From Dehalococcoidia bacterium (GTDB lineage: Bacteria > Chloroflexota > Dehalococcoidia > Lucifugimonadales > UBA3495), in contig OY763929.1 of the NCBI GenBank assembly GCA_963667675.1, forward strand, positions 622,358-686,357: a stretch of DNA of 64,000 nucleotides, given 5' to 3'. This document shows, piece after piece, positions 1,479-34,035 of the stretch. A model generated the notes under the pieces. That model worked only from the letters and a program-made list of their open reading frames with translations, had not been told where the DNA came from and made no database searches. The stretch's first letter is position 1; each line of letters starts with the position of its first letter. The translations under genes were made by a program, and so were the position numbers.

Positions 1479-2543
1479 TCACGTCTTTGCCTCGACGAAG
1501 GTGAGTGCATCCCGCGGATTGTCCACCAGAATCCTGTCTATTGCTTCGTTGCTCAACCCCCGAGCCCGCATCCTATGGACTACGTGGCCCAGTATGTAGT
1601 GGTACCCGTGGCCGCCGTACTTCACCAGCCTGTGCTTGGCGCAGATGTCCTGGGCAACCACCACCTTGTCACCGTATCCCTGCGATGAAATCCAGGCGAT
1701 GTCGTCTATGCGCTTGGCGTCGCTGGGCATGTCGATATTTGGATTGGGCGGGTAGTAGGAACTTTCGTTGCCGAATAGGTCCCACTCCAGGTAGCATCCC
1801 GTCTCGGCTATCTGGCTCAGGGTCTCTTTCAGGAACACCGTGCGGTCAAGGTGGCTCATGATCGTCCGGTTCAGGTCTGCCCCGGCCTCGTCTAGCACTC
1901 CGATGATTTCCATAGGCGCAGCTTCATCCCTGCCTGGGTGTATCAGCAAGGGAGCGCCGGTCATCCTCTGCGCCCTGGCCGACGCCCTTAATACCTTGCG
2001 CTCGTTGTCCTCCAACGGCCAAGAACAGCCGACCTCTCCGATTACGCCTGCTTTGATGCCCGTGTCGTCGGCCCCTTCGGTCACGTCCCGGACGATTTGT
2101 TGGACAATGTCCTGTTCCGTAAGCTGGTCCATCTCCGGCGGATGGGCCGCGCCCACGTAATAGGACGCTCCCATGACGACGTTCACCCCCGTGGCATTGG
2201 AGATTCGGAACAGCCCCACCGGGTCGCGGGCAAGGCCGATGCTGGTGGCGTCCACCAGGGAGACTCCGCCGTGCTGCTTGTACAGCATCACCTCGTCTAT
2301 GGCCGTGGCCACGTCGAACAGGCGGGCGTTGTCCTGGTTGGAGGCGGCGTAGTGGCGTATCTGGCCCACGTTTTCCTGGGTGACAGGCTGGAAAAAGAAG
2401 TCCTTGGCCGTTGCGCTTTCCGGTAGCCTGCGTACAACCGAAATGTCTATCAGCAGGTGCTCGTGAGTCAAGGTCACCCCCAAACGCTCCGGGTCGATGG
2501 GGCCAGTCACGGTCTGCACCTTGCCGGCTAAACTTCCGTCCAC
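1479..2543 (-). CDS. Phosphotriesterase-family (PTE/Php-like amidohydrolase) protein
   Basis: The 354-aa ORF has an N-terminal THEHLLID metal-binding HxH motif, GVIGEVG, and later His/Asp ligands (HPGR, SHLD, AQDI), as in the phosphotriesterase family. Confidence 0.85.
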   Translation of the reverse strand: MDGSLAGKVQTVTGPIDPERLGVTLTHEHLLIDISVVRRLPESATAKDFFFQPVTQENVGQIRHYAASNQDNARLFDVATAIDEVMLYKQHGGVSLVDATSIGLARDPVGLFRISNATGVNVVMGASYYVGAAHPPEMDQLTEQDIVQQIVRDVTEGADDTGIKAGVIGEVGCSWPLEDNERKVLRASARAQRMTGAPLLIHPGRDEAAPMEIIGVLDEAGADLNRTIMSHLDRTVFLKETLSQIAETGCYLEWDLFGNESSYYPPNPNIDMPSDAKRIDDIAWISSQGYGDKVVVAQDICAKHRLVKYGGHGYHYILGHVVHRMRARGLSNEAIDRILVDNPRDALTFVEAKT

Positions 2544-2662
2544 TGTATTCGCCTCCTATTGCATACCTGCCATTCCCGAGTAGGCTAGACTATATCCTCC
2601 CAGCCTGCAATCCCGGTTGCCGTCATGCTCTCAACCCAATGCCCAGCCAATATAATGTCTGC

Positions 2663-3214
2663 ATGGTTGAGCGCCCCGCCTCTGGACAATCCGAATCGAC
2701 AGGACCGACCGGTAGGGAAAACACGTCGGTGCGCGACGCCCGCGTCGGCGAGTTAGGCCAAATCGCCCAAATGATGCTGGATGCCTACCAAGAATACCAG
2801 GCCTATTTCCCGCCTGACACGTGGGAGCGGTATGCCGCAAACATCATGGACGTCCGCAGCCGGTTGGATGTCTCCGAATTGATCGTTGCCGAGCGCAACG
2901 GACGCGTGGTGGGTTCGGTTACCCTCTATCCCAATCTGGAGAACGCCGAACAGGACTGGCCTCCTGGATGGGCCGGCGTCCGGCTGCTGGCCGTTCACCC
3001 CGACGCCAGGGGGCAGGGTATCGGGCGTGTCTTGATGGATGAATGCCTGCGCCGGTCCCGCGGGCGACGCTCTGTAGCCGTGGGCCTGCACACGTCAGAC
3101 ATCATGAAGGTGGCCAGGGGTCTCTATGAGAGGATGGGATTCGTGCGGGTCCCGGAGTTCGACTTCCGTACCGGCTCCAACTGGAATGTGATGGCTTACC
3201 GGCTGGACTTGTAA
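2663..3214 (+). CDS. GNAT-family N-acetyltransferase
   Basis: The acetyl-CoA binding motif RGQGIGRVLMDE follows a LLAVHPDARG strand. The start was moved to the ATG at 2663 because the longer ORF would overlap the upstream gene and promoter region. Confidence 0.8.
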   Translation: MVERPASGQSESTGPTGRENTSVRDARVGELGQIAQMMLDAYQEYQAYFPPDTWERYAANIMDVRSRLDVSELIVAERNGRVVGSVTLYPNLENAEQDWPPGWAGVRLLAVHPDARGQGIGRVLMDECLRRSRGRRSVAVGLHTSDIMKVARGLYERMGFVRVPEFDFRTGSNWNVMAYRLDL

Positions 3215-3280
3215 TTGCATTGGTGGACAAGCAATAGGTATGGTGGATGGGCAAACGTCTCGGCCCAGACTTTGACGCGG

Positions 3281-3493
3281 TCAACCGGTGAAAAAGTCGA
3301 AGATATTGCCCAGCGCGCTGCTGTCGGCCTGGTAAATCTCCGTATACCTGCACCGTTTGCAGGTGACGGTGGTGAACTTCCGGCTCTGAACGTCGAACAG
3401 CTTTGACAGAAATCCCCCGGTAGCCCGAAACTCGCTGGTCTCGTACTCCCCGTTAGAACACTTGGCGCATTGGAACATCCCCGTAACTGCCAT
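3281..3493 (-). CDS. Small zinc-ribbon protein
   Basis: The 70-aa ORF has two CxxC pairs (CAKC … CKRC), which is typical of Zn-ribbon nucleic-acid-binding proteins. Confidence 0.6.
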   Translation of the reverse strand: MAVTGMFQCAKCSNGEYETSEFRATGGFLSKLFDVQSRKFTTVTCKRCRYTEIYQADSSALGNIFDFFTG

Positions 3494-3784
3494 CTTTCAT
3501 CTCCAATCAACGCCTGGTCTGAACTTCATCGCAGACGTCCCGTGTAGGGAGAGTGGACCAACGCCGTCGCAGCGGCCTTCCCACCATTTATACCACAGTC
3601 CAGGTTAAGGCTGGATAGTTTTGGCCCTGTGTCATGCCACAACTTCGCTGCGCCGCTATGCTACGCAGTGGCAGTCCAAAGCGGGGAGTTCCATCCGGGG
3701 GAACGACTGGAACGGCGAGACCGGTTGACGAATCAGATGCCCGGGGCCGAAACTGTACTGACCGCTGCACATGGAGGCAGGTCA

Positions 3785-4498
3785 GTGAAGCTGGGAAACC
3801 CGGTTCGGGTCACCGGCGGCGTCTATCAAGTACGGGCCATCGGCGCCAGGGTCACCGTGCTTACTGCAGGCGACGAAGCAATGCTGGTGGACGCCGGCAT
3901 GAGGGGCAGCTCTCCCTTCATAGCCGGCGGCTTGCAGGCTTTGGGCCTTTCCCTCGACGCGGTCAAGGTCGTGGTCGTCAGCCACCGTCACCCGGACCAC
4001 GCGTCCGGTGTCGGGGAACTTGTAGCCGGCAGACGAATCGCAGTCATGGCCCACCCCCTCGAAGCCAGCATCCTGGGCAGCGCTGAACGTCACCCCAGTC
4101 CGTTCCAGAATAGACTGGCGGCACAGGTTGCCCAGCCGGTCCTCGACGCAGTCAGTGGCAGCCCCATTGCCGTGGACGCCGAATTGGAAGACGGCCAGGC
4201 CATCCCCTTCTCGTATCTTGTCCGCGTAGTGCACCTGCCGGGTCACACCGCCGGCAGCATAGCCTTGTTCTTACCGGAGCAGAAACTGGTCATCGTAGGA
4301 GACGCCCTGCAGTACAAGCTTGGCCGCAGGCTCACTCCCCCCGCCGCCGGCGTCACCGAAGACCCGGCGCTGGCCCTGCAGTCGCTGCGAAAGCTGCTGG
4401 CCCTTGACTTCGACGCGCTCTGCTTCAGTCATTTCCCCCCAATGCGCAGTGGCGCATACGAGGCATTCAGCGCAATGCTCCGCCGGCGGGTCCCTTGA
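3785..4498 (+). CDS. MBL-fold metallo-hydrolase
   Basis: The HxHxDH motif SHRHPDHASG is present, with a later HLPGHTAG. The preferred start is GTG 3785, which lies 7 nt after GGAGG (3773-3777). In-frame alternatives are ATG 3737 and ATG 3629. Confidence 0.8.
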   Translation: MKLGNPVRVTGGVYQVRAIGARVTVLTAGDEAMLVDAGMRGSSPFIAGGLQALGLSLDAVKVVVVSHRHPDHASGVGELVAGRRIAVMAHPLEASILGSAERHPSPFQNRLAAQVAQPVLDAVSGSPIAVDAELEDGQAIPFSYLVRVVHLPGHTAGSIALFLPEQKLVIVGDALQYKLGRRLTPPAAGVTEDPALALQSLRKLLALDFDALCFSHFPPMRSGAYEAFSAMLRRRVP

Positions 4499-9089: not shown

Positions 9090-9175
9090 TGGTGCCGGGG
9101 GAGGGAATCGAACCCACACACCGGTCAAGGTAGCGGATTTTAAGTCCGCCGCGTCTACCGTTCCGCCACCCCGGC
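9090..9175 (-). tRNA. tRNA-Leu (anticodon UAA)
   Basis: The reverse complement folds as a cloverleaf. It has acceptor GCCGGGG/CCCCGGC, anticodon loop CUUAAAA, a long variable arm, T-loop GGTTCGATTCC, and an encoded CCA. Confidence 0.9.
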
Positions 9176-9311: not shown

Positions 9312-9340
9312 CATTCCCGCCCCCGAGCGGGAATCTAAAG
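9312..9340. repeat. REP-like hairpin element (type A variant)
   Basis: The sequence is cATTCCCGCccccgaGCGGGAATctaaag. It has the same architecture as the copies at 23686, 26857, 26930, 31428, 31604 and 34165. Confidence 0.6.
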
Positions 9341-15623: not shown

Positions 15624-15700
15624 TGGAGGCGACGGGCGGATTCGAACCGCCGAATAGAGGTTTTGCAGACCTCCGCCTTAGTCCACTTGGCTACGTCGCC
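15624..15700 (-). tRNA. tRNA-Cys (anticodon GCA)
   Basis: The reverse complement reads GGCGACG…CUGCAAA anticodon loop…GGTTCGAATCC…CGTCGCC-U-CCA and folds as a 77-nt cloverleaf. Confidence 0.9.
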
Positions 15701-15712
15701 CCTGGTTAGGCC

Positions 15713-15799
15713 TGGTGCCGAGGGCGGGATTTGAACCCACACAGGCGCACGCCCACGGCCCCCTCAAGACCGCGTGTCTACCAATTCCACCACCTCGGC
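15713..15799 (-). tRNA. tRNA-Leu (anticodon GAG)
   Basis: The reverse complement reads GCCGAGG…anticodon stem CGGTC/GGCCG with loop UUGAGGG…long variable arm…GGTTCAAATCC…CCTCGGC-A-CCA. Confidence 0.9.
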
Positions 15800-24800: not shown

Positions 24801-26717
24801 CTAGGCCGTCGCCGGAATCTCCTGGGCCCCCTCGCCCAAGGTTGCCGCCGCCTTGTCAGGGAAAAAGGCCCGCAGCACCCGTTGGGCGATTCCGTCGGCG
24901 TCCAACTCCAACCGGTGGCGCTGGTCGGCCGCGGTGCCATGTTCTATGAATTCGTCCGGCATGCCTATACGGTGGACGGATACGTCGTCCATCCCCGCGT
25001 CGGACAGGGCTTCCAGCACCGCCGAGCCGAATCCGCCGGCCAGCACGTTTTCCTCCACGGTCACGATTCGGCGGGTCCTGCTGGCCGCATCCAGGAGCAG
25101 GTCAACGTCCAGCGGCTTTACGAACACCGGGTCTACGACGCCGCAGGAAACGCCGCATCTCTCCAGTTCTTCCGCCGCAGCCAGGGCGGCCGAGGTCGAC
25201 TTGCCCAAGGCGAAGATCACCGCGTCCTGGCCCTCCCTGATAACCGTTCCTTTGCCAAGTGGCAACTCCTTGAGTTCCCCGTCCAGCGCCGCGCCGACGG
25301 CGGCCCCTCGGGCAATACGGATAGCGAAGGGGCCTTGGTGCTTGTAGGCGGTGTAGACCAGGTGCTGCAGTTGGTTTTCGTCCCTCGGCGCCGCAACCAC
25401 CGCGTTGGGCAGGCACCTCAGGTAAGAGATGTCGAAAGCGCCGTGGTGTGTCTTGCCGTCCTCACCCACTATCCCCGCCCGGTCGGCTATCAGCCCCACC
25501 GGCAGGTTCTGTAGGCACACGTCGTGCACTATCTGGTCAAAGGCCCGTTGTAGAAACGTCGAGTATATCGACACGAACGGCTTCAGCCCGTGGGACGCCA
25601 TTCCGGCCGCCATGCTCACGGCGTTCTGCTCGGCTATGCCCACGTCGAAGACCCGGTCCGGGAATTCGCCCCGCACTTCGGCCAGGCCGGTACCCTCCAG
25701 CATCGCCGCGCTTATGCCTACCACGCCGTCGTCCTCCCGCATGATGCGGGATATGGTCTGCGCGAAGACCTTAGAGTACGTGGGAGCTCCCGAACTATCG
25801 CCCAGCGGCGAACTGGGCTGGTGGAACTTCACGGGATCGTCCTCCGCCGGTTCGTACCCGTGGCCTTTGTGGGTCACCACGTGTATCAGCGGTACCGAGC
25901 CCGTGGACTTCATGGCTTGCCGCAGCGTCTGTTCCAGTTGCTTGAAGTTATGGCCGTCCACCGGGCCCAAGTACTGAAAGCCCATCTCGGTCCAGAACAT
26001 CGTCGGAACAATCGCTCCGGCCAGCCCGGTGTTCAACCGCTTGACCAGCCGGTACATCAGTTCCCCTGTGGGCACCTTCTTGGAGATGCGTCTCACCCGC
26101 CCCACCATGGCCTGGTATTCAGGGTGGGTGATTAAGCGCTTTCGCCAGTTGGTTAGAAAGCCGATGTTCTCCGAGATGGACATCCCGTTGTCGTTCAGGA
26201 TGACTATCAACCCCTTAGGGTTCAGGTGCACGATGTTGTTCACCGCCTCGAAGCTGGACCCCGAGGTCATTGCCCCGTCCCCGACGACGGCGATGGTCCA
26301 GGAACCGTCCTCCCGCTTGGCTGCGCCTTCGGCTATGCCCAGGGCTATGGAGAGACCGGTTCCTGCGTGGCCCGCGCACAGGGTGTCGTGAGGGCTCTCG
26401 TTGGGCTCTCCGAACCCCGATAGGCCCCCTTCCAGGCGAATGGCTTGAAAGCCCTCCCTCCGCCCCGTCACCAGCTTGTGGGTATAGGTCTGGTTGGTCG
26501 TGTCCCAGACGATACTGTCCTTGGGGCTGTCGAAGACCCGGTGCAACGCCAGCGTAAGCTCGACCACCCCCAGGTTGGAAGCCAGGTGGCCGCCCCGCTC
26601 GGTTATGACCGAGATAATGGCCTGGCGGGCCTCCTTCGCAACTTGGGCTAACTGCCGGTAGTTGAGCCCTTTCAGGTCTTCGGGGCTGTCGATTCGGTCC
26701 AAGAGTTGGTCGGCCAT
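24801..26717 (-). CDS. dxs: 1-deoxy-D-xylulose-5-phosphate synthase
   Basis: The ORF begins MADQLLDRIDSPEDLKGL and has TPP-binding GHAGTGLS and GDGAMTSG motifs. AAGGAG precedes the ATG at 26717. Confidence 0.95.
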   Translation of the reverse strand: MADQLLDRIDSPEDLKGLNYRQLAQVAKEARQAIISVITERGGHLASNLGVVELTLALHRVFDSPKDSIVWDTTNQTYTHKLVTGRREGFQAIRLEGGLSGFGEPNESPHDTLCAGHAGTGLSIALGIAEGAAKREDGSWTIAVVGDGAMTSGSSFEAVNNIVHLNPKGLIVILNDNGMSISENIGFLTNWRKRLITHPEYQAMVGRVRRISKKVPTGELMYRLVKRLNTGLAGAIVPTMFWTEMGFQYLGPVDGHNFKQLEQTLRQAMKSTGSVPLIHVVTHKGHGYEPAEDDPVKFHQPSSPLGDSSGAPTYSKVFAQTISRIMREDDGVVGISAAMLEGTGLAEVRGEFPDRVFDVGIAEQNAVSMAAGMASHGLKPFVSIYSTFLQRAFDQIVHDVCLQNLPVGLIADRAGIVGEDGKTHHGAFDISYLRCLPNAVVAAPRDENQLQHLVYTAYKHQGPFAIRIARGAAVGAALDGELKELPLGKGTVIREGQDAVIFALGKSTSAALAAAEELERCGVSCGVVDPVFVKPLDVDLLLDAASRTRRIVTVEENVLAGGFGSAVLEALSDAGMDDVSVHRIGMPDEFIEHGTAADQRHRLELDADGIAQRVLRAFFPDKAAATLGEGAQEIPATA

Positions 26718-26856
26718 GTCGGAACTCCTTGGCAAGTGTCAACGGACGCAGAAACCCACTACAGCTTTGCGCCAGATAATTCTAGGCGCATGAGGCCCAC
26801 ATTACAAGTTGGCGTGACTACAGCACAGTTAACATTGTTGAGAAGCGCCCCCACTC

Positions 26857-27078
26857 GTCATTCCGGCCCCCGAGCCGGAATCCAGAAATACCGGCCCCAA
26901 TCCTGCCCATAGTAACCCCACCCCGCCCTGTCATTTCGAGCGAAGCCGAGAAATCTCAAACCCCGCCCTCCAACCTCGAAATTGCGCCCTCACTGATACT
27001 TGCCCCCTTCCGTTCACCCTGAGGTTCTCGAAGGGCCTGCCCTGGTCCCGTCGAAGGGGGAAATCGAAGGGTCCGCCG
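26857..27078. repeat. REP-like palindromic element cluster (two type A plus one type B)
   Basis: It holds gtcATTCCGGCccccgaGCCGGAATccag at 26857-26887 and gtcATTTCGAGcgaagcCGAGAAATctc at 26930-26960. A type B copy, cgttcaccctgag…tcgaaggg…tcgaaggggg…atcgaaggg, lies at 27011-27078. Confidence 0.7.
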
Positions 27079-27089
27079 CCATCCCGCCC

Positions 27090-27210
27090 AAAAAAGTAGA
27101 GGACAGGCCGTAGCCTGCCCCCTCATTTGTTGCCATAAGGCTTGTTAACGGAACCTCCCCGATCTCCCATCGGATATAATACCGTTTCAGCCTCTCGGCA
27201 AAGCCTCTAA
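27090..27210 (-). ncRNA. Predicted tracrRNA (divergent from cas9)
   Basis: The minus strand at 27180-27144 reads AUUAUAUCCGAUGGGAGAUCGGGGAGGUUCCGUUAAC. This is complementary to the minus-strand crRNA repeat GUUGCGGUUCCUCCCCGAUCUCCCAUCGGCUAUAAU, with a 17-nt perfect core plus a bulge and mismatches. It is followed by AAGCC… and a GC hairpin, GGGCAGGC-UACG-GCCUGUCC, then a U6 tract (the A-run at 27090-27095). The 5' end is not determined. A candidate TGGTATACT extended -10 lies on the minus strand at 27218-27226. Confidence 0.7.
27175..27180 (+). promoter_or_regulatory. Candidate -10 box (TATAAT) for cas9, derived from the repeat-like sequence
   Basis: The plus strand of the anti-repeat region is a degenerate copy of the CRISPR repeat. 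It ends in TATAAT about 70-80 nt upstream of the cas9 start. No clear -35 is present. Confidence 0.35.
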
Positions 27211-27258
27211 CTTGGTGAGTATACCACCGCTTAAATCTAACTGCAAACGGTGACGGCA

Positions 27259-30200
27259 ATGACAAACGTCAAAGACAAAAAGTACCGCCTCGGCCTCGAC
27301 TTGGGCACCAATTCCATCGGCTGGGCCGCGGTTAGCCTGGACGACAATGACGAACCCTGTGGCGTGCTGGGCATGGGCGTCCGCATCTTCCCCGACGGGC
27401 GCGATGCTCAAAGCAAGACCTCCAACGCCGTCGACCGCCGCATGGCCCGTGGCCAACGCCGCCGCCGCGACCGCTACCTCGAGCGGCGCCGCGACTTGAT
27501 GGATGCCTTGGTCGAGTTTGGCCTCATGCCCCAGGATGCGGAGCAACGTAAAGACTTGCAGACCCTCGATCCTTACGCGCTCCGGGCTAAGGCCCTTGAT
27601 GAACCCTTGGAACCCTCCGAATTGGCCCGCGCCCTGTTCCACTTGAACCAGCGGCGCGGCTTCAAGTCCAACCGAAAAGCAGACACTGACGAGGTCGAAG
27701 GAAGATCGCTCAGTGAGCGAATCGGCGAACTGCGCCGCCAAATGCAGGAAACCAGCGCTCGCACCTTGGGCGAGTTCCTGTATCGCCGCCGCGTAAATAG
27801 CGAGACGGTCCGCGCCCGTCCCGACCTCAGACTCTATCCCGACCGCGCCATGTATCTGGAAGAGTTCTGCAAAATCCGGGCTGCCCAAAAACCGCATCAG
27901 CCCCTGACGCCCGATCAGTGGGACAAGCTGAAAGAAATCATTTTCCACCAGCGTCCCCTCGAACCTGTGGACCCCGGCTGGTGCCAGTTCGAGTACGAAA
28001 ACGACGAAAAGCGGGCCGCGAAGGCTCTGCCGGTCTTCCAGGAGTTTCGCATCCTCCAGGAAGTCAATAACATCAGGGTGCGGGTTGGCTCCCAGCCGGA
28101 ACGTCGTCTCGATGAACGAGAACGAGGGGCGGTTCTGGCGAGGCTCCGTTCCGGCAAGGACATAGACTTCGGCAAGCTTACCGGAGACTTGAGGAAGCTG
28201 CTGGCGGAAGCTGACTTCAACCTGGCTCTGGGCGGACGAGAGAAGATAAAGGGAGATGAGACAACCGCCAGGCTCGCCTCATCCCCACAGCCGGCCAAGG
28301 GAGACAAGCCAGCTAAGCCCGGGTTGTTCGGCGATAAGTGGCTCAACCTCCCCATTGACCGGCGCAACGAAATCGTAAAGTTCCTCCTGAATACCGAGGA
28401 CCCGGACAAGGTCCGGGAAAAAGCAATTCAAGAATGGGGACTTAACACCGCCCAAGCCGACGCTGTTGCCCGCGTGTCTTTGGTGGCCGGCTACGGTAGC
28501 CTTAGTGAAAAGGCCATAAACAAGCTCCTGCCTCACCTGGAAGGCGGGATGCGGTATGACGAGGCCGTCAAAAAGGAGTACAAACACCATTCCGACTTCC
28601 GCAACGAAGAAGCCCACGACAGCCTGCCCTACTACGGCAAAGTCCTGCCCCGAGACGCCGTGGGCGCCAACTCCAAGAAAGCCCCGGAGATAGACGGCGA
28701 AGTAGCCCGCTATGGACGCTTCCCCAATCCCACAGTCCACATCGGCCTCAACCAACTCCGCCGCGTCGTCAACCGGCTTATTGAAGCCCACGGCAAGCCC
28801 CAGGACGTTGTTGTCGAGTTGACCCGCGACTTGAAGCTGAACCCGCAGCAGAAGCGAGACCTCCTCAAACAGCAACGAGAAGGCGGCCAGAGCAACATTC
28901 GTTTTACCGAAATGTTGCAGTCAATGGGACAGGACGTCACCCCCAACGTACTCCGCAAGCTTCGCCTTTGGGAGGAGCAGGGCCCGCCCCAGGCCAGAGT
29001 CTGCCCTTATACTGGCAGGCGACTTTCATGCGAGATGGTCGTGTCCGAGCAGACCGAAGTTGACCACATCCTGCCCTACTCTAGAACCCTGGACAATTCA
29101 CCGTCCAACATGGTGGTCTGCATCGCCGCCGCCAACCGCTTTAAGGGCGATCGCTCGCCCGATGAAGCCTTTAGCAGCAACCCGCAGAACTACAGCTACC
29201 AGGAAATCCTGGACCGCGTAGCCAAGTTCCCAGACAACAAGAAATGGCGCTTCCAGCCCGACGCCATGAAGCGGTTTGAAGAAGATGACCGGTTCCTGGA
29301 CCGCCAGCTAAACGAGACTAGCTACCTATCCCGCACCGCAAAGAACTACCTGGCCTACCTCTACGACGAGAAAGGCGAGGGCCGCACCCGCGTCCGCGCC
29401 GCGCCTGGCCGCATGACCGCCCTGCTCCGCCGCGGGTGGTGCTTGGAAGGGATGCTGCGGACGTCGCCCGAGGGAGAGATAACTCGCAAGCAGCGCGACG
29501 ACCACCGCCACCATGCCGTCGATGCCTTTGTCGTCGCTTGCACGACCCAGGGATTGCTCCAGAAGTTCGCCCGCGCCGCCGGAGCGTCACACAATTCCGA
29601 GGAAAGGCTGGCTGCTTTGGCCGGTGAAACCCCTCCCTGGGAAGGCTTTGACCGAAACAAGCTGAAGCCCTTCCTCGGTAAGATAGTCGTCTCCTACAAG
29701 CCCGACCACGGCACGCGCGGCGCAAAGACCAAGTCCACTACCGGCCAACTCCACAAAGAGACCGCCTACGGGTTGGTCGAATTCTCAGAGAACGGCCCGT
29801 CCAAGGTGGTTACTCGCAAGAAGCTGGACGCCGTCAAGAAGCGAAAGGACCTGGAGTCCGTGCGCGACTCTGTAATGCGGGATGCCCTGCTCAAGCTGTG
29901 GGATGACGTGGCAAGAGAAGGCGGGGAAGTGGGGAGTTTCTCAGACCGGGCCGCCAAAGAAGGTGTGCTGCTCGAAAAAGGCCGCCGTCAGACGGTGCGT
30001 CGGGTGCGTGTGCTCGATAAACAGACCGTCATACCCATCAAGCGCGGCAAGGGGCACCCTGAGGTCGGAAAACCCTACAAGGGCTACCTGCTAGGGGGCA
30101 ACGCCTGGGCCGACATGTGGCAGATGCCCGACAAGCAAAAAACCTGGAAGATGGTCGTAGTGCCAACTTTTCATGCCAATCAGCCGGGTTTTAAGCTGGA

Positions 30201-30495
30201 ACAGTTCCGCCCCCACGCCGATGCCAAGAAGCTCTTCAGAATTCAAATCGACGACATGGGAGCCCTGGGCGATGGAGCTGAGCGCCGTATTGTGCGCGTC
30301 AGGAAAATCACCAACGCAACATCTGGCGCATTCGTAGTATTGGATGAACACAATCAAGCTAATGTGGCAGACCGTGTAGGAAAAGACATGAAAGAAAATA
30401 GGTACTCTGCCCGGCAACTCAAGCAGTTGGGGTTCCGCAAAGTCGGCGTAGACGAAATCGGCCGCGTGCTGGACCCCGGCCCCCGCAACCCATGA
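27259..30495 (+). CDS. cas9: Cas9 endonuclease, type II-C-like (about 1078 aa)
   Basis: It has RuvC-I YRLGLDLGTNSIGWA, an Arg-rich bridge helix RMARGQRRRRDRYLERRR, RuvC-II VVVELTRD, HNH EVDHILPYSRTLDNSPSNMVVCIAAANRFKGDRSP, and RuvC-III DDHRHHAVDAFVVA. An alternative start is GTG 27250. Confidence 0.95.
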   Translation: MTNVKDKKYRLGLDLGTNSIGWAAVSLDDNDEPCGVLGMGVRIFPDGRDAQSKTSNAVDRRMARGQRRRRDRYLERRRDLMDALVEFGLMPQDAEQRKDLQTLDPYALRAKALDEPLEPSELARALFHLNQRRGFKSNRKADTDEVEGRSLSERIGELRRQMQETSARTLGEFLYRRRVNSETVRARPDLRLYPDRAMYLEEFCKIRAAQKPHQPLTPDQWDKLKEIIFHQRPLEPVDPGWCQFEYENDEKRAAKALPVFQEFRILQEVNNIRVRVGSQPERRLDERERGAVLARLRSGKDIDFGKLTGDLRKLLAEADFNLALGGREKIKGDETTARLASSPQPAKGDKPAKPGLFGDKWLNLPIDRRNEIVKFLLNTEDPDKVREKAIQEWGLNTAQADAVARVSLVAGYGSLSEKAINKLLPHLEGGMRYDEAVKKEYKHHSDFRNEEAHDSLPYYGKVLPRDAVGANSKKAPEIDGEVARYGRFPNPTVHIGLNQLRRVVNRLIEAHGKPQDVVVELTRDLKLNPQQKRDLLKQQREGGQSNIRFTEMLQSMGQDVTPNVLRKLRLWEEQGPPQARVCPYTGRRLSCEMVVSEQTEVDHILPYSRTLDNSPSNMVVCIAAANRFKGDRSPDEAFSSNPQNYSYQEILDRVAKFPDNKKWRFQPDAMKRFEEDDRFLDRQLNETSYLSRTAKNYLAYLYDEKGEGRTRVRAAPGRMTALLRRGWCLEGMLRTSPEGEITRKQRDDHRHHAVDAFVVACTTQGLLQKFARAAGASHNSEERLAALAGETPPWEGFDRNKLKPFLGKIVVSYKPDHGTRGAKTKSTTGQLHKETAYGLVEFSENGPSKVVTRKKLDAVKKRKDLESVRDSVMRDALLKLWDDVAREGGEVGSFSDRAAKEGVLLEKGRRQTVRRVRVLDKQTVIPIKRGKGHPEVGKPYKGYLLGGNAWADMWQMPDKQKTWKMVVVPTFHANQPGFKLEQFRPHADAKKLFRIQIDDMGALGDGAERRIVRVRKITNATSGAFVVLDEHNQANVADRVGKDMKENRYSARQLKQLGFRKVGVDEIGRVLDPGPRNP

Positions 30496-31403
30496 TTGGC
30501 CGCGTCATCGAAATAGCCGGCGAGGGCCGCCACCTCGCCCGCAGCCGTGGCCTGATGACCGTCTCCCAGGACGGCGCTGAGGTCGGGCGCGTGCCCTTGG
30601 ACGACATCGGCGTCCTCCTCTGCAACGCCCGCGGCCTCACCTACTCCAACGACCTGATGACCGAGCTTGCCCACCGCGGCGCCTCGGTGGTGATGTGCGG
30701 CGACAGGTTCCTCCCCGTGGCCTGGGTCTGGCCCTTGGAAGGCCACCACGTCCAGGCCCTGCGGATGCGCCGCCAGTTGGAGGCTGGTCTCCCCCTTCGC
30801 AAGCGCCTCTGGCAGGCCCTCGTAAAGGGAAAAATCACCCAGCAGTCCAACGTGTTGAAGCTGCTGGAAGTTTCCGGCGGCAGCCTTGATGCCCTGGCGC
30901 AGCGGGTCAAGTCCGGCGACCCCGGCAACGTGGAAGCCCAGGCCGCCAGGCTGTACTGGCCCATGCTCTTCGGCAGGAACTTCAGGCGGGAACGTTTCGG
31001 CCCCATGCCCAACCCCCTCCTCAACTACGGCTACACCGTCCTGCGCGCCTCCGCCGCCCGCGCCTTGGTCGCCTCCGGTCTCCACCCCTCCCTGGGCATC
31101 CACCACAGCAACCGTACCAACAGCTTATGCCTGGTGGACGACCTCATGGAGCCATTCCGCCCCTTTGTGGACTACGTCGTCTCCGTGCTGGTATCCAACC
31201 AGCGCGAGGAAATGACCATCGAGGTCAGGCGCGACCTCGCCTCGGTCCTGGTAATGGACCTCGCTACTGACCGTGGGACCACTCCCCTTCAGACCTGCCT
31301 GGAACGCGCCGCCCAGTCCCTGGCCCAGTCCTTCGAGACCGGCAAGCCGGAACTGGTTCTACCCGACCGGCTCATCTCCCGCGGCCTGCCTGCCATTGCC
31401 TAG
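30492..31403 (+). CDS. cas1: CRISPR-associated endonuclease Cas1 (type II)
   Basis: The 303-aa ORF has an ATGA overlap with the cas9 stop. It shows a Cas1 alpha-helical domain pattern (NPLLNYGYTVLR…GLHPSLGIHH…LVDDLMEPFRPFVD). Confidence 0.95.
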   Translation: MIGRVIEIAGEGRHLARSRGLMTVSQDGAEVGRVPLDDIGVLLCNARGLTYSNDLMTELAHRGASVVMCGDRFLPVAWVWPLEGHHVQALRMRRQLEAGLPLRKRLWQALVKGKITQQSNVLKLLEVSGGSLDALAQRVKSGDPGNVEAQAARLYWPMLFGRNFRRERFGPMPNPLLNYGYTVLRASAARALVASGLHPSLGIHHSNRTNSLCLVDDLMEPFRPFVDYVVSVLVSNQREEMTIEVRRDLASVLVMDLATDRGTTPLQTCLERAAQSLAQSFETGKPELVLPDRLISRGLPAIA

Positions 31404-31427: not shown

Positions 31428-31502
31428 GTCATTCCGGCCCCCGAGCCGGAATCCAGGGAATCCCCATGCCCAACCGTCTTTCCGGCGGAAGCCGGAATCC
31501 AG
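31428..31502. repeat. 75-bp double-hairpin repeat element, copy A (between cas1 and cas2)
   Basis: The sequence is gtcattCCGGCccccgaGCCGGaatccagggaatccccatgcccaaccgtctttCCGGCggaaGCCGGaatccag. It differs from copy B at 3 positions. Confidence 0.85.
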
Positions 31503-31603: not shown

Positions 31604-31678
31604 GTCATTCCGGCCCCCGAGCCGGAATCCAGGGAATCCCCATGCGTAACCGTCTTTCCGGCGGAAGCCGGAATCTAG
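31604..31678. repeat. 75-bp double-hairpin repeat element, copy B (between cas1 and cas2)
   Basis: This is a direct repeat of 31428-31502, offset by 176 bp, with the same two GC hairpins. Confidence 0.85.
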
Positions 31679-31786: not shown

Positions 31787-32113
31787 GTGCTTTCCGGCTA
31801 CCGTCTCATGTGGATGATGGTCCTGTTCGACCTGCCGGTCCTCACCGATAAGGAGCGGCGGGCCGCCAATAAGTTCCGCAACTTCCTGATGGACCAGGGT
31901 TTCGACCGCTGCCAGTTGTCCGTCTACCTGCGCTTCTGCGCCGGCAAAGAGCAGGCCCAGGTCTATACCAAGCGGGTCCAGGGGGCATTGCCCGAATCAG
32001 GCGACGTCCAGATTATCTACTTCACCGACAAGCAGTACGAAAACATCGTCAGTTTCAGCGGGCCAAGGCGGCGACCGGCCAACAATAATCCGGAGCAATT
32101 CACCCTGTTTTGA
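31787..32113 (+). CDS. cas2: CRISPR-associated endoribonuclease Cas2
   Basis: The 108-aa ORF has a GTG start and an N-terminal beta-strand MWMMVLFDLPV with the conserved Asp. Its position just before the array supports the call. Confidence 0.9.
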   Translation: MLSGYRLMWMMVLFDLPVLTDKERRAANKFRNFLMDQGFDRCQLSVYLRFCAGKEQAQVYTKRVQGALPESGDVQIIYFTDKQYENIVSFSGPRRRPANNNPEQFTLF

Positions 32114-32189: not shown

Positions 32190-33603
32190 ATTATAGCCGA
32201 TGGGAGATCGGGGAGGAACCGCAACGATGTCCGACGGCATCCGGTAGTTGGGCTGATTATAGCCGATGGGAGATCGGGGAGGAACCGCAACGGACCGGGC
32301 TGCGCTGCCTAGCATTGCGGAATTATAGCCGATGGGAGATCGGGGAGGAACCGCAACAGCAGTTTCGGGGGTTAGCGTGGGCCGCAAATTATAGCCGATG
32401 GGAGATCGGGGAGGAACCGCAACCTCAGATAGTTTTGCTTGTTCGGGCCGTTCATTATAGCCGATGGGAGATCGGGGAGGAACCGCAACTCAGCTTTCTC
32501 ATGGTCGTGCCATCGGTTCATTATAGCCGATGGGAGATCGGGGAGGAACCGCAACGCGCCAAGTATTAGGGGAAATACGGGCATATTATAGCCGATGGGA
32601 GATCGGGGAGGAACCGCAACAGGTTACGGGATACGCTAGGCTTTTACTTTATTATAGCCGATGGGAGATCGGGGAGGAACCGCAACTAGGCTTACTCCGT
32701 CTCGATAGTTCTGATTATAGCCGATGGGAGATCGGGGAGGAACCGCAACCCATCGTGTGAGGCATGGTCCGCCAAGGCCATTATAGCCGATGGGAGATCG
32801 GGGAGGAACCGCAACCAAATCATCAGGCGCTTGTCCTTGGCCGCATTATAGCCGATGGGAGATCGGGGAGGAACCGCAACGGTCCTCATGTGGCACCCCG
32901 CGCCGGCCGGATTATAGCCGATGGGAGATCGGGGAGGAACCGCAACTTCACCGCGGTGGTAGCCGCACTGGGCGATATTATAGCCGATGGGAGATCGGGG
33001 AGGAACCGCAACCTCCTGTGTGACTTTAAGGATTGGCCAGCGATTATAGCCGATGGGAGATCGGGGAGGAACCGCAACTGGATTATGAGCCGGGGTTCAA
33101 GCTGGTCCATTATAGCCGATGGGAGATCGGGGAGGAACCGCAACGCTACAATCAGCGTCCCCACGGTTAGCGACATTATAGCCGATGGGAGATCGGGGAG
33201 GAACCGCAACTAAAGGTCGTGATGCCTGTGCTCCGGTCCATTATAGCCGATGGGAGATCGGGGAGGAACCGCAACTAGCTGGCCGGTCAAGGTCTCGACG
33301 GCCTGATTATAGCCGATGGGAGATCGGGGAGGAACCGCAACTAGCTGGCCGGTCAAGGTCTCGACGGCCTGATTATAGCCGATGGGAGATCGGGGAGGAA
33401 CCGCAACTAGCTGGCCGGTCAAGGTCTCGACGGCCTGATTATAGCCGATGGGAGATCGGGGAGGAACCGCAACACCGGAATGGTGATGAGCCTTACCCTG
33501 GCCATTATAGCCGATGGGAGATCGGGGAGGAACCGCAACGCATCGCGATGACTATGGTCCCTGCCTTATTATAGCCGATGGGAGATCGGGGAGGAACCGC
33601 AAC
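32190..33603 (-). CRISPR. CRISPR array with 22 identical 36-bp repeats and 21 spacers
   Basis: The repeat on the plus strand is ATTATAGCCGATGGGAGATCGGGGAGGAACCGCAAC. Its reverse complement is GTTGCGGTTCCTCCCCGATCTCCCATCGGCTATAAT. Sixteen spacers are 30 nt, three are 29 nt, one is 28 nt and one is 27 nt. The minus-strand call rests on the GTTG…TATAAT repeat form, the tracrRNA complementarity and the terminator at 32141-32181. Confidence 0.97.
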
Positions 33604-33696: not shown

Positions 33697-34035
33697 TCAA
33701 GACCCGTCGTGGGTCTGGTCGATGCGGACTATGTCGGCCTGAATCACCGCCATGGCCTGCATCATCCGTTGCAGCGTCTCATCCCGGCGCGCGCTGGAAT
33801 CTTGTAGTTGACGGACAGCCTCATCCGTTCCACGGACTGCTTCATCCGTTCGCTGGACCGCTTCATCCATTCGCCGGACCGCTTCATTCATTCGTCGTAC
33901 AGCCTCAATCATTCGCTCCACCGCTGCTCTCGTTCGCTTCTGGTCCTCATCTATCAGCGCAATCATGTCGGTGGCGTACCGGGTGAATTCTTCCAGGTTG
34001 CCGATCCGGTCTTCCATGCCAGCCTTGCCCTCCAC
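33697..34035 (-). CDS. Hypothetical coiled-coil protein with heptad (21-bp) tandem repeats
   Basis: The 112-aa ORF contains EAVRRM(N/D)-type heptads. They are encoded by five 21-bp tandem units at 33813-33917. No family was recognised. Confidence 0.45.
   Translation of the reverse strand: MEGKAGMEDRIGNLEEFTRYATDMIALIDEDQKRTRAAVERMIEAVRRMNEAVRRMDEAVQRTDEAVRGTDEAVRQLQDSSARRDETLQRMMQAMAVIQADIVRIDQTHDGS

What the first reader, a model, noticed from the sequence alone, without database searches (positions are those of the whole stretch)
27090..27247. Predicted tracrRNA encoded divergently, immediately upstream of cas9
Plus strand 27144-27180 (GTTAACGGAACCTCCCCGATCTCCCATCGGATATAAT) is a degenerate copy of the reverse-complemented CRISPR repeat. 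A minus-strand transcript from here would therefore carry an anti-repeat. That anti-repeat pairs with crRNA through a 17-nt perfect core flanked by a bulge and U:U mismatches, which is the classic repeat:anti-repeat geometry. Downstream on the minus strand come AAGCC…, an 8-bp GC stem with a UACG tetraloop, and U6, a typical tracrRNA 3' tail and terminator. A plausible promoter lies upstream on the minus strand: TTTGCA, 18 nt, then the extended -10 TGGTATACT (27218-27247).
Basis: seen in the sequence. Interest (0 to 1): 0.65.

Follow-up and report, generated by a model that had tools for sequence, protein, structure and literature searches.

The report
Type II-C Cas9 tracrRNA gene
This is the gene for the small helper RNA (tracrRNA) that Cas9 needs to use its CRISPR guides, and it is an ordinary, well-conserved member of a widespread family, useful mainly for designing a single-guide RNA for this uncharacterised Cas9.

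Summary

**Locus.** The window carries a complete type II-C locus: cas9 27259-30495, cas1, cas2, and 22 identical 36-nt repeats at 32190-33603.

**Anti-repeat.** The only repeat-like sequence outside the array is at 27144-27180. It lies on the opposite strand to the array repeats. Its perfect core is 20 nt, not 17.

**Transcript.** Read on the minus strand, it sits in a compact small-RNA gene:
- promoter TTTGCA-18-TGgTATACT
- a leader of about 32 nt
- a 37-nt anti-repeat
- AAG plus a 3-bp nexus hairpin
- an 8-nt linker
- an 11-bp hairpin with a UACG loop, followed by U6

**Independent test.** I built a covariance model from 30 homologous tails, leaving the window out. It hits 27152..27094 at 62.5 bits (E about 1e-13) and nothing else significant in the 64 kb.

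**Family.** The same module occurs once per locus in 146 of 167 sources searched (166 related cas9 loci plus the window). It is almost always divergent and within 450 nt or less upstream of cas9. Covariation is strong: 91.8% of cells paired, against 40-56% for slid controls.

**Verdict.** This is a new member of a known kind, and interest is low. Expression, processing and Cas9 function remain untested.

**Side observations.**
- The tracrRNA -35 box lies 11 nt from the cas9 ATG, so the cas9 promoter must lie inside or beyond the tracrRNA gene.
- A leader:tail fold is conserved only in the closest relatives.

The parts
27242..27247 (-). tracrRNA promoter, -35 box TTTGCA; it lies 11 nt from the cas9 ATG
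   Evidence: Found by the promoter scan. The box is conserved in position in close relatives L081-L086 and L167-L171.
27218..27226 (-). extended -10 box TGGTATACT
   Evidence: TGnTAnnnT sits in the same register in 7 of 8 close relatives, and L006 has TGATATAGT. Among five further close loci, three keep it at the same offset, one is shifted by 2 nt, and one matches only the unextended TATAAT.
27090..27212 (-). predicted primary tracrRNA, about 123 nt; the start site near 27211-27213 is inferred from the -10 box, and the 3' end lies in the U6 tract
   Evidence: Inferred. The fold is -52.8 kcal/mol, z = -5.2 against shuffles.
27181..27212 (-). 5' leader ahead of the anti-repeat; it can pair with the end of the anti-repeat and with the nexus region
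   Evidence: Present in the minimum-energy fold. The helices are kept in 83-94% of cells in 8 close relatives, but the pairing is not family-wide.
27144..27180 (-). anti-repeat AUUAUAUCCGAUGGGAGAUCGGGGAGGUUCCGUUAAC
27154..27173 (-). 20-nt core perfectly complementary to the crRNA repeat
   Evidence: the only copy outside the array, with 0 expected by chance.
27132..27143 (-). AAG plus the nexus hairpin GCC-UUAU-GGC
   Evidence: Covariance model alignment. The G-C closing pair is invariant, and the next two pairs covary across 68 loci.
27124..27131 (-). single-stranded linker AACAAAUG (family consensus CAC[AC]AAAU)
   Evidence: Alignments A2 and A4.
27098..27123 (-). terminator hairpin: 11 pairs, UACG loop
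   Evidence: Of its 12 modelled pairs, 11 show changes on both sides across the family.
27090..27095 (-). U6 tract of the intrinsic terminator
27259..30495 (+). cas9, 1078 aa, type II-C
   Evidence: TIGR01865, 599.5 bits. An identical protein is on record (P0001). The closest solved structures include Nme1Cas9 6jdq, at about 200 bits.
30492..31403 (+). cas1
   Evidence: TIGR03639, 243 bits.
31787..32113 (+). cas2
   Evidence: TIGR01573, 64.5 bits.
32190..33603 (-). CRISPR array: 22 identical 36-nt repeats and 21 spacers of 27-30 nt. The crRNA sense is the minus strand (GUUGCGG...CUAUAAU).
   Evidence: The orientation is inferred from the tracrRNA tail and terminator lying 3' of the anti-repeat on the minus strand, and from the -10-like box at the 3' end of each repeat.

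Best explanation
**What it is.** Window 27090-27247, minus strand, is the tracrRNA gene of a type II-C CRISPR-Cas9 system. The nearest relatives of its Cas9 are from Dehalococcoidia metagenome-assembled genomes.

**Shown here**
- A sigma-70-type promoter with an extended -10 box is present.
- Downstream comes a 37-nt anti-repeat. It can pair over the full 36 nt of the CRISPR repeat as a 7-bp lower stem, a UU/UU internal loop, a 20-bp upper stem, a single mismatch and 6 further bp.
- The invariant CCGUUAAC-AAG junction follows, then a short nexus hairpin, an A-rich linker, and a G+C-rich hairpin with U6.
- The tail is a conserved, covarying RNA module, found once per locus next to orthologous cas9 genes.

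**Inferred from established type II biology**
- The RNA starts near 27212 and ends near 27090.
- It base-pairs with repeat-derived parts of crRNAs transcribed from the minus strand of the array.
- Those crRNAs may start at the TATAAT box that ends each repeat, as in Neisseria and Campylobacter type II-C systems.
- RNase III may trim the duplex.
- Cas9 binds the lower stem, bulge, nexus and hairpin.
- The complex cleaves PAM-flanked DNA that matches the spacer.
For: **Locus and anti-repeat**
- cas9, cas1 and cas2 are identified by curated models.
- The array has 22 identical repeats.
- There is a single anti-repeat outside the array, on the opposite strand, with 0 expected by chance.
- The duplex is -57.3 kcal/mol, against -16.6 +/- 3.8 for shuffles.

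**Transcription signals**
- The promoter and terminator are found by the scans.
- The extended -10 box keeps the same register in close relatives.

**Independent model and family**
- Covariance model R1 was built without the window. It hits 27152..27094 at 62.5 bits, E = 7.9e-14. The next hit has E = 1.6.
- R1 finds one hit per locus in 68 of 81 sources and 78 of 86. Nearly all are on the strand opposite cas9 and 450 nt or less upstream.
- The best anti-repeat occupies the same place in nearly all related loci that carry an array.
- Covariation: 91.8% of cells paired against 40-56% slid; score 0.651 against 0.21 or less; 13 of 15 pairs show changes on both sides.

**Protein-coding alternative**
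- The mechanical open reading frame across the region, 27014-27265 on the minus strand, matches no Pfam family.
Against: - There are no expression data.
- No Rfam family matches, so membership rests on my own model.
- Some orthologues lack a U-tract after the hairpin, so termination efficiency is uncertain across the family. The window itself has U6.
- Only 64 kb of a genome of about 2.6 Mb could be searched for competing anti-repeats.
- The covariance-model alignment used for pair counts is fitted to the model, which favours the structure. However, the unfitted MAFFT/RNAalifold analysis also shows 8 of 12 pairs with compensatory changes.
Confidence: 0.9

Rival explanations
1. The sequence is a decayed orphan repeat, a remnant of an old or inverted array end, with no function. 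On this view the promoter-like and terminator-like sites are coincidental.
For: - tracrRNAs are thought to derive from degenerated repeats (Chylinski 2013, PMC3737331, read), so a solo repeat is a natural by-product.
- Promoter and terminator scans report only consensus matches.
Against: - The 3' flank of the repeat copy is a conserved, covarying structure, found once per locus in 146 of 167 sources.
- The promoter register is conserved.
- The anti-repeat co-varies with the cognate repeat across loci. For example, GCGGUUAAC in L009 and L010 pairs with repeats that begin GUUGCCGC.
- A neutral remnant would not keep all of this.
Confidence: 0.03
2. The functional product is on the plus strand. 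On this view the degenerate repeat lies in the cas9 5' UTR and acts as a crRNA-like or scaRNA-like element, or supplies the cas9 promoter through its TATAAT box at 27175-27180. The minus-strand RNA would then be secondary.
For: - The tracrRNA -35 box is 11 nt from the cas9 ATG. The cas9 promoter must therefore lie inside or beyond the tracrRNA gene.
- The plus strand carries a perfect TATAAT hexamer pointing at cas9.
Against: - The scan finds no plus-strand promoter in 26700-27400. No acceptable -35 box and no TG extension precede the TATAAT.
- On the plus strand the sequence 3' of the repeat copy runs into cas9 without a terminator.
- G.U pairs in the conserved helices fit only the minus-strand RNA.
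- This reading could coexist with the tracrRNA rather than replace it.
Confidence: 0.05
3. The region encodes a small protein: the mechanical open reading frame 27014-27265 on the minus strand, 83 aa with a TTG start.
For: The open reading frame is listed.
Against: - It matches no Pfam family.
- Orthologous regions differ by hairpin-sized insertions and deletions and by compensatory base changes, which are incompatible with a conserved reading frame.
- The frame would overlap the cas9 start codon.
Confidence: 0.01

Closest known systems
Neisseria meningitidis / Campylobacter jejuni type II-C tracrRNAs
   Same: - Both have a minimal cas9-cas1-cas2 operon.
- Both have 36-nt repeats that begin GUU in crRNA sense and end in a -10-like box.
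- The array is read opposite to the cas operon (PMC3737331; PMC12080349).
- The tracrRNA has the same parts: anti-repeat, AAG junction, nexus hairpin and terminal hairpin.
- Nme1Cas9 (6jdq) is among the closest solved Cas9 structures, at about 200 bits.
   Different: - Here the tracrRNA gene lies upstream of and divergent from cas9. From my own recollection, not tested here, those species carry it inside or downstream of the cas operon.
- The tail here is short, with a 3-bp nexus and a single hairpin.
- The -10 box in the repeats has no TG extension.
- Sequence similarity to those tracrRNAs was not tested.
Streptococcus pyogenes type II-A tracrRNA, including the long form tracr-L
   Same: - The gene lies upstream of cas9 on the opposite strand.
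- The anti-repeat:repeat duplex contains a bulge.
- A nexus and a terminator follow.
- A 5' leader can fold back onto the anti-repeat region, reminiscent of tracr-L. This resemblance is from my own knowledge of Workman et al. 2021 and was not tested.
   Different: - The subtype differs: there is no csn2, and Cas9 is 1078 aa.
- The array is read in the opposite direction.
- The leader fold-back here also consumes the nexus, so it would not form a natural single-guide RNA.
- No Rfam family, including any tracrRNA model, matched.
tracrRNA tail covariance-model clusters (Dooley 2021; CRISPRtracrRNA, PMC9486595)
   Same: I applied the same evidence categories: tail covariance model, terminator, repeat:anti-repeat interaction, Cas9 cassette and strand consistency.
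   Different: Those models were not available here, so I could not check whether this clade (CCGUUAAC-AAG, nexus, CAC[AC]AAAU, hairpin) is already one of their clusters.

Membership tests
tracrRNA (type II CRISPR-Cas) | An anti-repeat complementary to the repeat of the cognate array | tested here: met
   The match has a 20-nt perfect core and pairs over all 36 nt of the repeat, at -57.3 kcal/mol against -16.6 for shuffles. It is the only such site in the window.
tracrRNA (type II CRISPR-Cas) | Encoded within or next to a cas9 locus that has an array | tested here: met
   The gene ends 11 nt upstream of the cas9 ATG. cas9, cas1, cas2 and the array are all identified.
tracrRNA (type II CRISPR-Cas) | A structured 3' tail (nexus plus one or more hairpins), conserved among orthologous loci | tested here: met
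   The independent covariance model scores 62.5 bits, E = 7.9e-14. It gives 146 hits in 167 sources. Covariation score is 0.651 against 0.21 or less for slid controls.
tracrRNA (type II CRISPR-Cas) | A Rho-independent terminator on the same strand, 3' of the tail | tested here: met
   An 11-bp hairpin followed by U6.
tracrRNA (type II CRISPR-Cas) | Its own promoter, and a strand consistent with crRNA orientation | tested here: met
   The promoter is TTTGCA-18-TGgTATACT, and the extended -10 register is conserved. The repeat reads GUU...UAUAAU on the same strand sense needed for pairing. This rests on consensus and conservation only.
tracrRNA (type II CRISPR-Cas) | Expressed, pairs with pre-crRNA, and is required for Cas9 interference | not testable with these tools
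   This needs RNA sequencing or Northern blots, together with in vitro or in vivo cleavage assays.
Any Rfam RNA family (release 15) | Reaches the gathering score of an Rfam model | tested here: not met
   Only three tRNAs pass in the window. In 26700-27400 there are only chance-level hits, E of 0.8 or more.
Type II-C CRISPR-Cas | A cas9-cas1-cas2 operon with no csn2 or cas4 | tested here: met
   NCBIfam hits for the three genes. Small open reading frames between cas1 and cas2 and beside the array have no significant Pfam match.
Type II-C CRISPR-Cas | Repeat-internal promoters and RNase III-independent crRNA 5' ends | tested here: inconclusive
   Each repeat ends in CTATAAT in crRNA sense. There is no TG extension, and the scan calls no promoter inside the repeats.

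The most novel reading that the evidence does not exclude
The tracrRNA gene and cas9 are wired head to head, so that they regulate each other.
- The tracrRNA -35 box abuts the cas9 ribosome-binding site, 11 nt from the ATG. The cas9 mRNA must therefore start inside or beyond the tracrRNA gene and be antisense to it. That would give transcriptional interference, or an RNase III-sensitive duplex between the cas9 5' UTR and the tracrRNA.
- In addition, the primary tracrRNA of this Dehalococcoidia-type subclade may adopt a 'closed' fold. In that fold the 5' leader (UUGCC, AGGCU, AACGG) masks the nexus and the lower-stem part of the anti-repeat, until crRNA pairing or processing opens it.
- Together these would form a type II-C counterpart of the tracr-L autoregulation known from type II-A.
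Probability: 0.15. Interest if true: 0.45.

Novelty: new member of a known kind. Interest (0 to 1): 0.2.

Why it matters
**Practical value.** The result gives the complete guide-RNA parts list for an uncharacterised 1078-aa type II-C Cas9 from a Chloroflexota-like genome: the crRNA repeat sense, lower stem, bulge, upper stem, nexus and terminator. It also gives a covariance model that locates the tracrRNA in about 87% of related loci (146 of 167 sources). A single-guide RNA can be designed directly from this.

**Biological value.** It confirms that the upstream, divergent tracrRNA layout and the CCGUUAAC-AAG junction are conserved. They hold across Dehalococcoidia, Alpha- and Betaproteobacteria and other lineages carrying this Cas9 clade.

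It does not change what is known about CRISPR-Cas9.

Tried and rejected
- **Rfam.** Searches at gathering and permissive thresholds found no family for the region.
- **Source genome.** A look-up of the window's own Cas9 in the assembly index found no record, so the source genome could not be named or scanned for a second anti-repeat.
- **Metagenome scans.** A scan with the single protein found nothing. The scan with the alignment returned only relatives at 57% identity or less. These were useful for counting model hits but not for the close subclade.
- **Protospacers.** I searched for protospacers to obtain a PAM and an independent check on orientation. Three 24-nt spacer seeds had no exact match in IMG/VR. 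A blastn-short search of all spacers against the window and all held loci gave only chance matches.
- **Leader:nexus pairing across the family.** A test of cognate against non-cognate duplex energies over 74 loci gave a mean z of only -0.45. I therefore rejected the pairing as a family trait and kept it only as a subclade observation.
- **tracr-L-like natural single-guide RNA.** I considered and set this aside, because the leader pairing also disrupts the nexus.
- **Plus-strand promoter for cas9.** The scan found none in 26700-27400.
- **Protein-coding reading of the region.** It has no Pfam support.
- **Literature search.** A search for the junction motif CGTTAACAAG or CGUUAACAAG returned only unrelated primer hits.

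Full report
**1. What is in the sequence**

The window holds a complete type II-C CRISPR-Cas locus.
- cas9 is at 27259-30495 and encodes 1078 aa. It matches TIGR01865 at 599.5 bits.
- cas1 is at 30492-31403, and cas2 is at 31787-32113.
- The array is at 32190-33603. It has 22 identical 36-nt repeats, ATTATAGCCGATGGGAGATCGGGGAGGAACCGCAAC on the plus strand, and 21 spacers of 27-30 nt.
- No csn2 or cas4 candidate is present.
- Upstream of the finding, on the minus strand, lies dxs at 24801-26735.

**2. Checking the observation**

It aligns over its whole length with the reverse complement of the repeat, with one single-base indel and four substitutions.

The 20-nt core CCTCCCCGATCTCCCATCGG was searched with up to three mismatches.
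- It occurs 23 times in the 64 kb.
- The 22 array copies are on one strand, and the single copy at 27154-27173 is on the other.
- Dinucleotide shuffles give zero matches.
- The next-best repeat-like match in the window scores 21, against 49 for this one.

The perfect core is therefore 20 nt, not 17.

The RNA duplex between the crRNA-sense repeat (GUUGCGG...CUAUAAU) and the minus-strand anti-repeat is -57.3 kcal/mol. A thousand shuffled anti-repeats give -16.6 +/- 3.8.

Its geometry, from the guide-proximal end, is:
- a 7-bp lower stem with one bulged U and one G.U pair
- a 2x2 UU/UU internal loop
- 20 bp
- a C/U mismatch
- 6 bp

The scan tool independently reports two further features:
- the promoter TTTGCA-18 nt-TATACT with an upstream TG, at 27247..27218 on the minus strand
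- a terminator at 27123..27098, with 11 pairs (7 G-C) and a UACG loop, followed by ACUUUUUU

The 123-nt candidate folds at -52.8 kcal/mol, z = -5.2.

**3. Evidence from related loci**

The Cas9 has thousands of homologues, the closest at 75% identity.

I fetched 80 loci from species-representative genomes using an alignment of 30 orthologues.
- The nearest are Dehalococcoidia metagenome-assembled genomes, at 58-66% identity.
- Next comes Parvibaculum at 49%.
- Many Alpha- and Betaproteobacteria follow at 35-41%.

In nearly every locus that contains an array, the best anti-repeat lies on the strand opposite the array repeat and 70-300 nt upstream of cas9.

The candidates share the following features:
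- an extended -10 promoter
- the anti-repeat
- an invariant CCGUUAAC-AAG junction
- a variable nexus hairpin
- a CAC[AC]AAAU linker
- a G+C-rich hairpin with a YNCG loop

To obtain a test independent of the window, I aligned 30 homologous tails without the window sequence and built covariance model R1.
- R1 hits window 27152..27094 on the minus strand at 62.5 bits, E = 7.9e-14.
- The only other hit in the 64 kb has E = 1.6.
- Across the window plus the 80 genome loci, it finds one hit in each of 68 sources.
- Across 80 metagenome loci plus six close relatives, it finds 78.
- By my reading of the coordinates, about 64 of the first 68 lie on the strand opposite cas9 and within 450 nt upstream.

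The exceptions are informative rather than contradictory:
- In L004 the tracrRNA lies between cas2 and the array.
- In L074 and L125 it is on the same strand as cas9.
- In L039 it is 4 kb upstream, and in L002 about 2 kb upstream.
- In L083 an IS66 element separates it from cas9.

Pair counts on the 68-sequence alignment are as follows.

| Measure | Observed | Control |
|---|---|---|
| Cells paired | 91.8% | 40-56% with the 3' partners slid |
| Covariation score | 0.651 | 0.21 or less when slid |
| Covariation score reached by shuffles | — | 0 of 500 |
| Pairs with changes on both sides | 13 of 15 | — |

That alignment is fitted to the model. The unfitted MAFFT/RNAalifold analysis already gave 8 of 12 pairs with compensatory changes.

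The repeat and anti-repeat also co-vary between loci. For example, repeats that begin GUUGCCGC are partnered by GCGGUUAAC.

**4. Closest relatives and the promoter**

I fetched eleven loci encoding Cas9 at 66-75% identity, L081-L086 and L167-L171. Together with L006 they show the same gene.
- TGnTAnnnT is at a fixed distance from the anti-repeat in 7 of the first 8 sequences. Of the further five, three keep that distance, one is shifted by 2 nt, and one lacks the TG extension.
- The -35 box is followed immediately by GTCACC. On the plus strand this reads GGTGAC, the likely cas9 Shine-Dalgarno sequence.
- The cas9 start codon follows.

The promoter is thus supported by conservation as well as by its match to the consensus. 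The start site near 27211-27213 and the 3' end at 27090-27095 are inferences.

**5. Mechanism**

*Shown here:* an anti-repeat with the lower stem, internal loop and upper stem layout; a conserved nexus; a terminator hairpin; a promoter; and co-location with cas9.

*Inferred from established type II biology:*
- The RNA pairs with repeat-derived parts of crRNAs read from the minus strand of the array.
- Cas9 binds the duplex and the tail.
- RNase III may trim the upper stem.
- The complex cleaves PAM-flanked targets.

Each repeat ends, in crRNA sense, in CTATAAT.
- This matches the published picture that type II-C repeats carry their own promoters, and that new spacers enter at the last repeat (PMC12080349).
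- A start about 7 nt downstream would leave a guide of about 23-24 nt.
- There is no TG extension, however, and the scan calls no promoter there. This step remains open.

**6. Rival explanations**

- **A functionless orphan repeat.** This is contradicted by the conserved, covarying tail and promoter.
- **A plus-strand product.** No plus-strand promoter is found by the scan, there is no terminator before cas9, and the G.U pairs fit only the minus strand. It could still coexist with the tracrRNA.
- **The mechanical 83-aa open reading frame.** It has no family match, and its orthologous regions differ by hairpin-sized indels.

**7. Comparison with what is known**

This is a standard tracrRNA, judged by all the criteria that dedicated pipelines use (PMC9486595).
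- The cas operon and the array orientation match type II-C as defined by Chylinski et al. 2013 (PMC3737331).
- Nme1Cas9 (6jdq) is among the closest solved Cas9 structures, at about 200 bits.
- No Rfam family covers it.
- I found no paper that pairs tracrRNA with Dehalococcoidia or that quotes the junction motif.
- I could not run the published tracrRNA cluster models. I therefore rate it a new member of a known kind, not a new variant.

**8. Side observations**

- **Head-to-head layout.** The tracrRNA -35 box is 11 nt from the cas9 ATG. The cas9 promoter must therefore lie inside or beyond the tracrRNA gene, which implies antisense overlap or transcriptional interference.
- **Leader:tail pairing.** In the minimum-energy fold the 5' leader pairs with the end of the anti-repeat and with the nexus region.
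  - In eight close relatives these helices are kept in 83-94% of cells, and three pairs change on both sides.
  - A family-wide test of cognate against non-cognate pairing is essentially negative, with mean z of -0.45.
  - I report it as an unproven feature of the subclade.
- **Inserted hairpins.** Several orthologues carry an extra hairpin inserted at exactly the position of the internal loop of the anti-repeat.

**9. Verdict**

The finding is real and correctly interpreted, but ordinary for a type II-C locus. Its value is practical: guide-RNA design for this Cas9, and a model that locates tracrRNAs across the clade.

Noticed in passing
window 27242-27261: The tracrRNA -35 box (27242-27247) is only 11 nt from the cas9 ATG (27259). 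It abuts GGTGAC, the likely cas9 ribosome-binding site. This arrangement is conserved in L081-L086 and L167-L171. The cas9 promoter must therefore lie inside or beyond the tracrRNA gene, so the two transcripts probably overlap in antisense.
   Followed up: partly
window 27181-27212 paired with 27124-27150: The 5' leader of the predicted primary tracrRNA can pair with the 3' end of the anti-repeat and with the nexus and linker (UUGCCG:UGGCAA, GAGGCU:AGCCUU, AACGG:CCGUU). The pairing is kept in 83-94% of cells in 8 close relatives, with 3 doubly changed pairs. It is not a family-wide trait.
   Followed up: partly
window 27175-27180 (+) and the 3' end of every repeat, e.g. 32190-32195 (crRNA sense): Each repeat ends in TATAAT in crRNA sense. 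This is a -10-like box, as in the repeat-internal promoters of Neisseria and Campylobacter type II-C systems, but without a TG extension. The same hexamer in the anti-repeat reads TATAAT on the plus strand and points at cas9, 79 nt upstream of the ATG.
   Followed up: partly
window 33276-33437: Spacers 17, 18 and 19 are three identical copies of TAGCTGGCCGGTCAAGGTCTCGACGGCCTG. This points to a duplication of repeat-spacer units inside the array.
   Followed up: no
window 9312-9335, 26859-26882, 31430-31453, 31606-31629: A small dispersed hairpin repeat, CATTCCGGCCCCCGAGCCGGAATC, occurs four times. One copy lies between the tracrRNA terminator and dxs. Two copies lie inside an insert of about 380 bp that separates cas1 from cas2. 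In relatives L085, L086 and L168-L171, cas1 and cas2 are only about 10-30 nt apart.
   Followed up: partly
L001 7780-7840, L003 7842-7900, L004 12834-12880, L005 7784-7835, L015 7789-7844, L143 about 764-830: Some orthologous tracrRNAs carry an extra hairpin of 15-35 nt inserted in the anti-repeat. It sits exactly where the window has the UU/UU internal loop, so the bulge position tolerates large insertions on the tracrRNA side.
   Followed up: no
L004 12763-12834; L074 7688-7746 (+); L125 590-648 (+); L083 2217-2275 with IS66 at 2422-3795; L039 3685-3745: The tracrRNA gene has moved in a few relatives. In L004 it lies between cas2 and the array. In L074 and L125 it is inverted, onto the cas9 strand. 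In L083 an IS66 transposase gene separates it from cas9. In L039 it lies 4 kb upstream.
   Followed up: no
window 33810-33916: A 21-nt tandem repeat (about 5 copies) lies inside a minus-strand open reading frame just beyond the array. That frame (33697-34035) has only weak coiled-coil-like Pfam hits.
   Followed up: no
window 9093-9175, 15627-15700, 15716-15799: There are three tRNA genes on the minus strand. They are unrelated to the finding.
   Followed up: no
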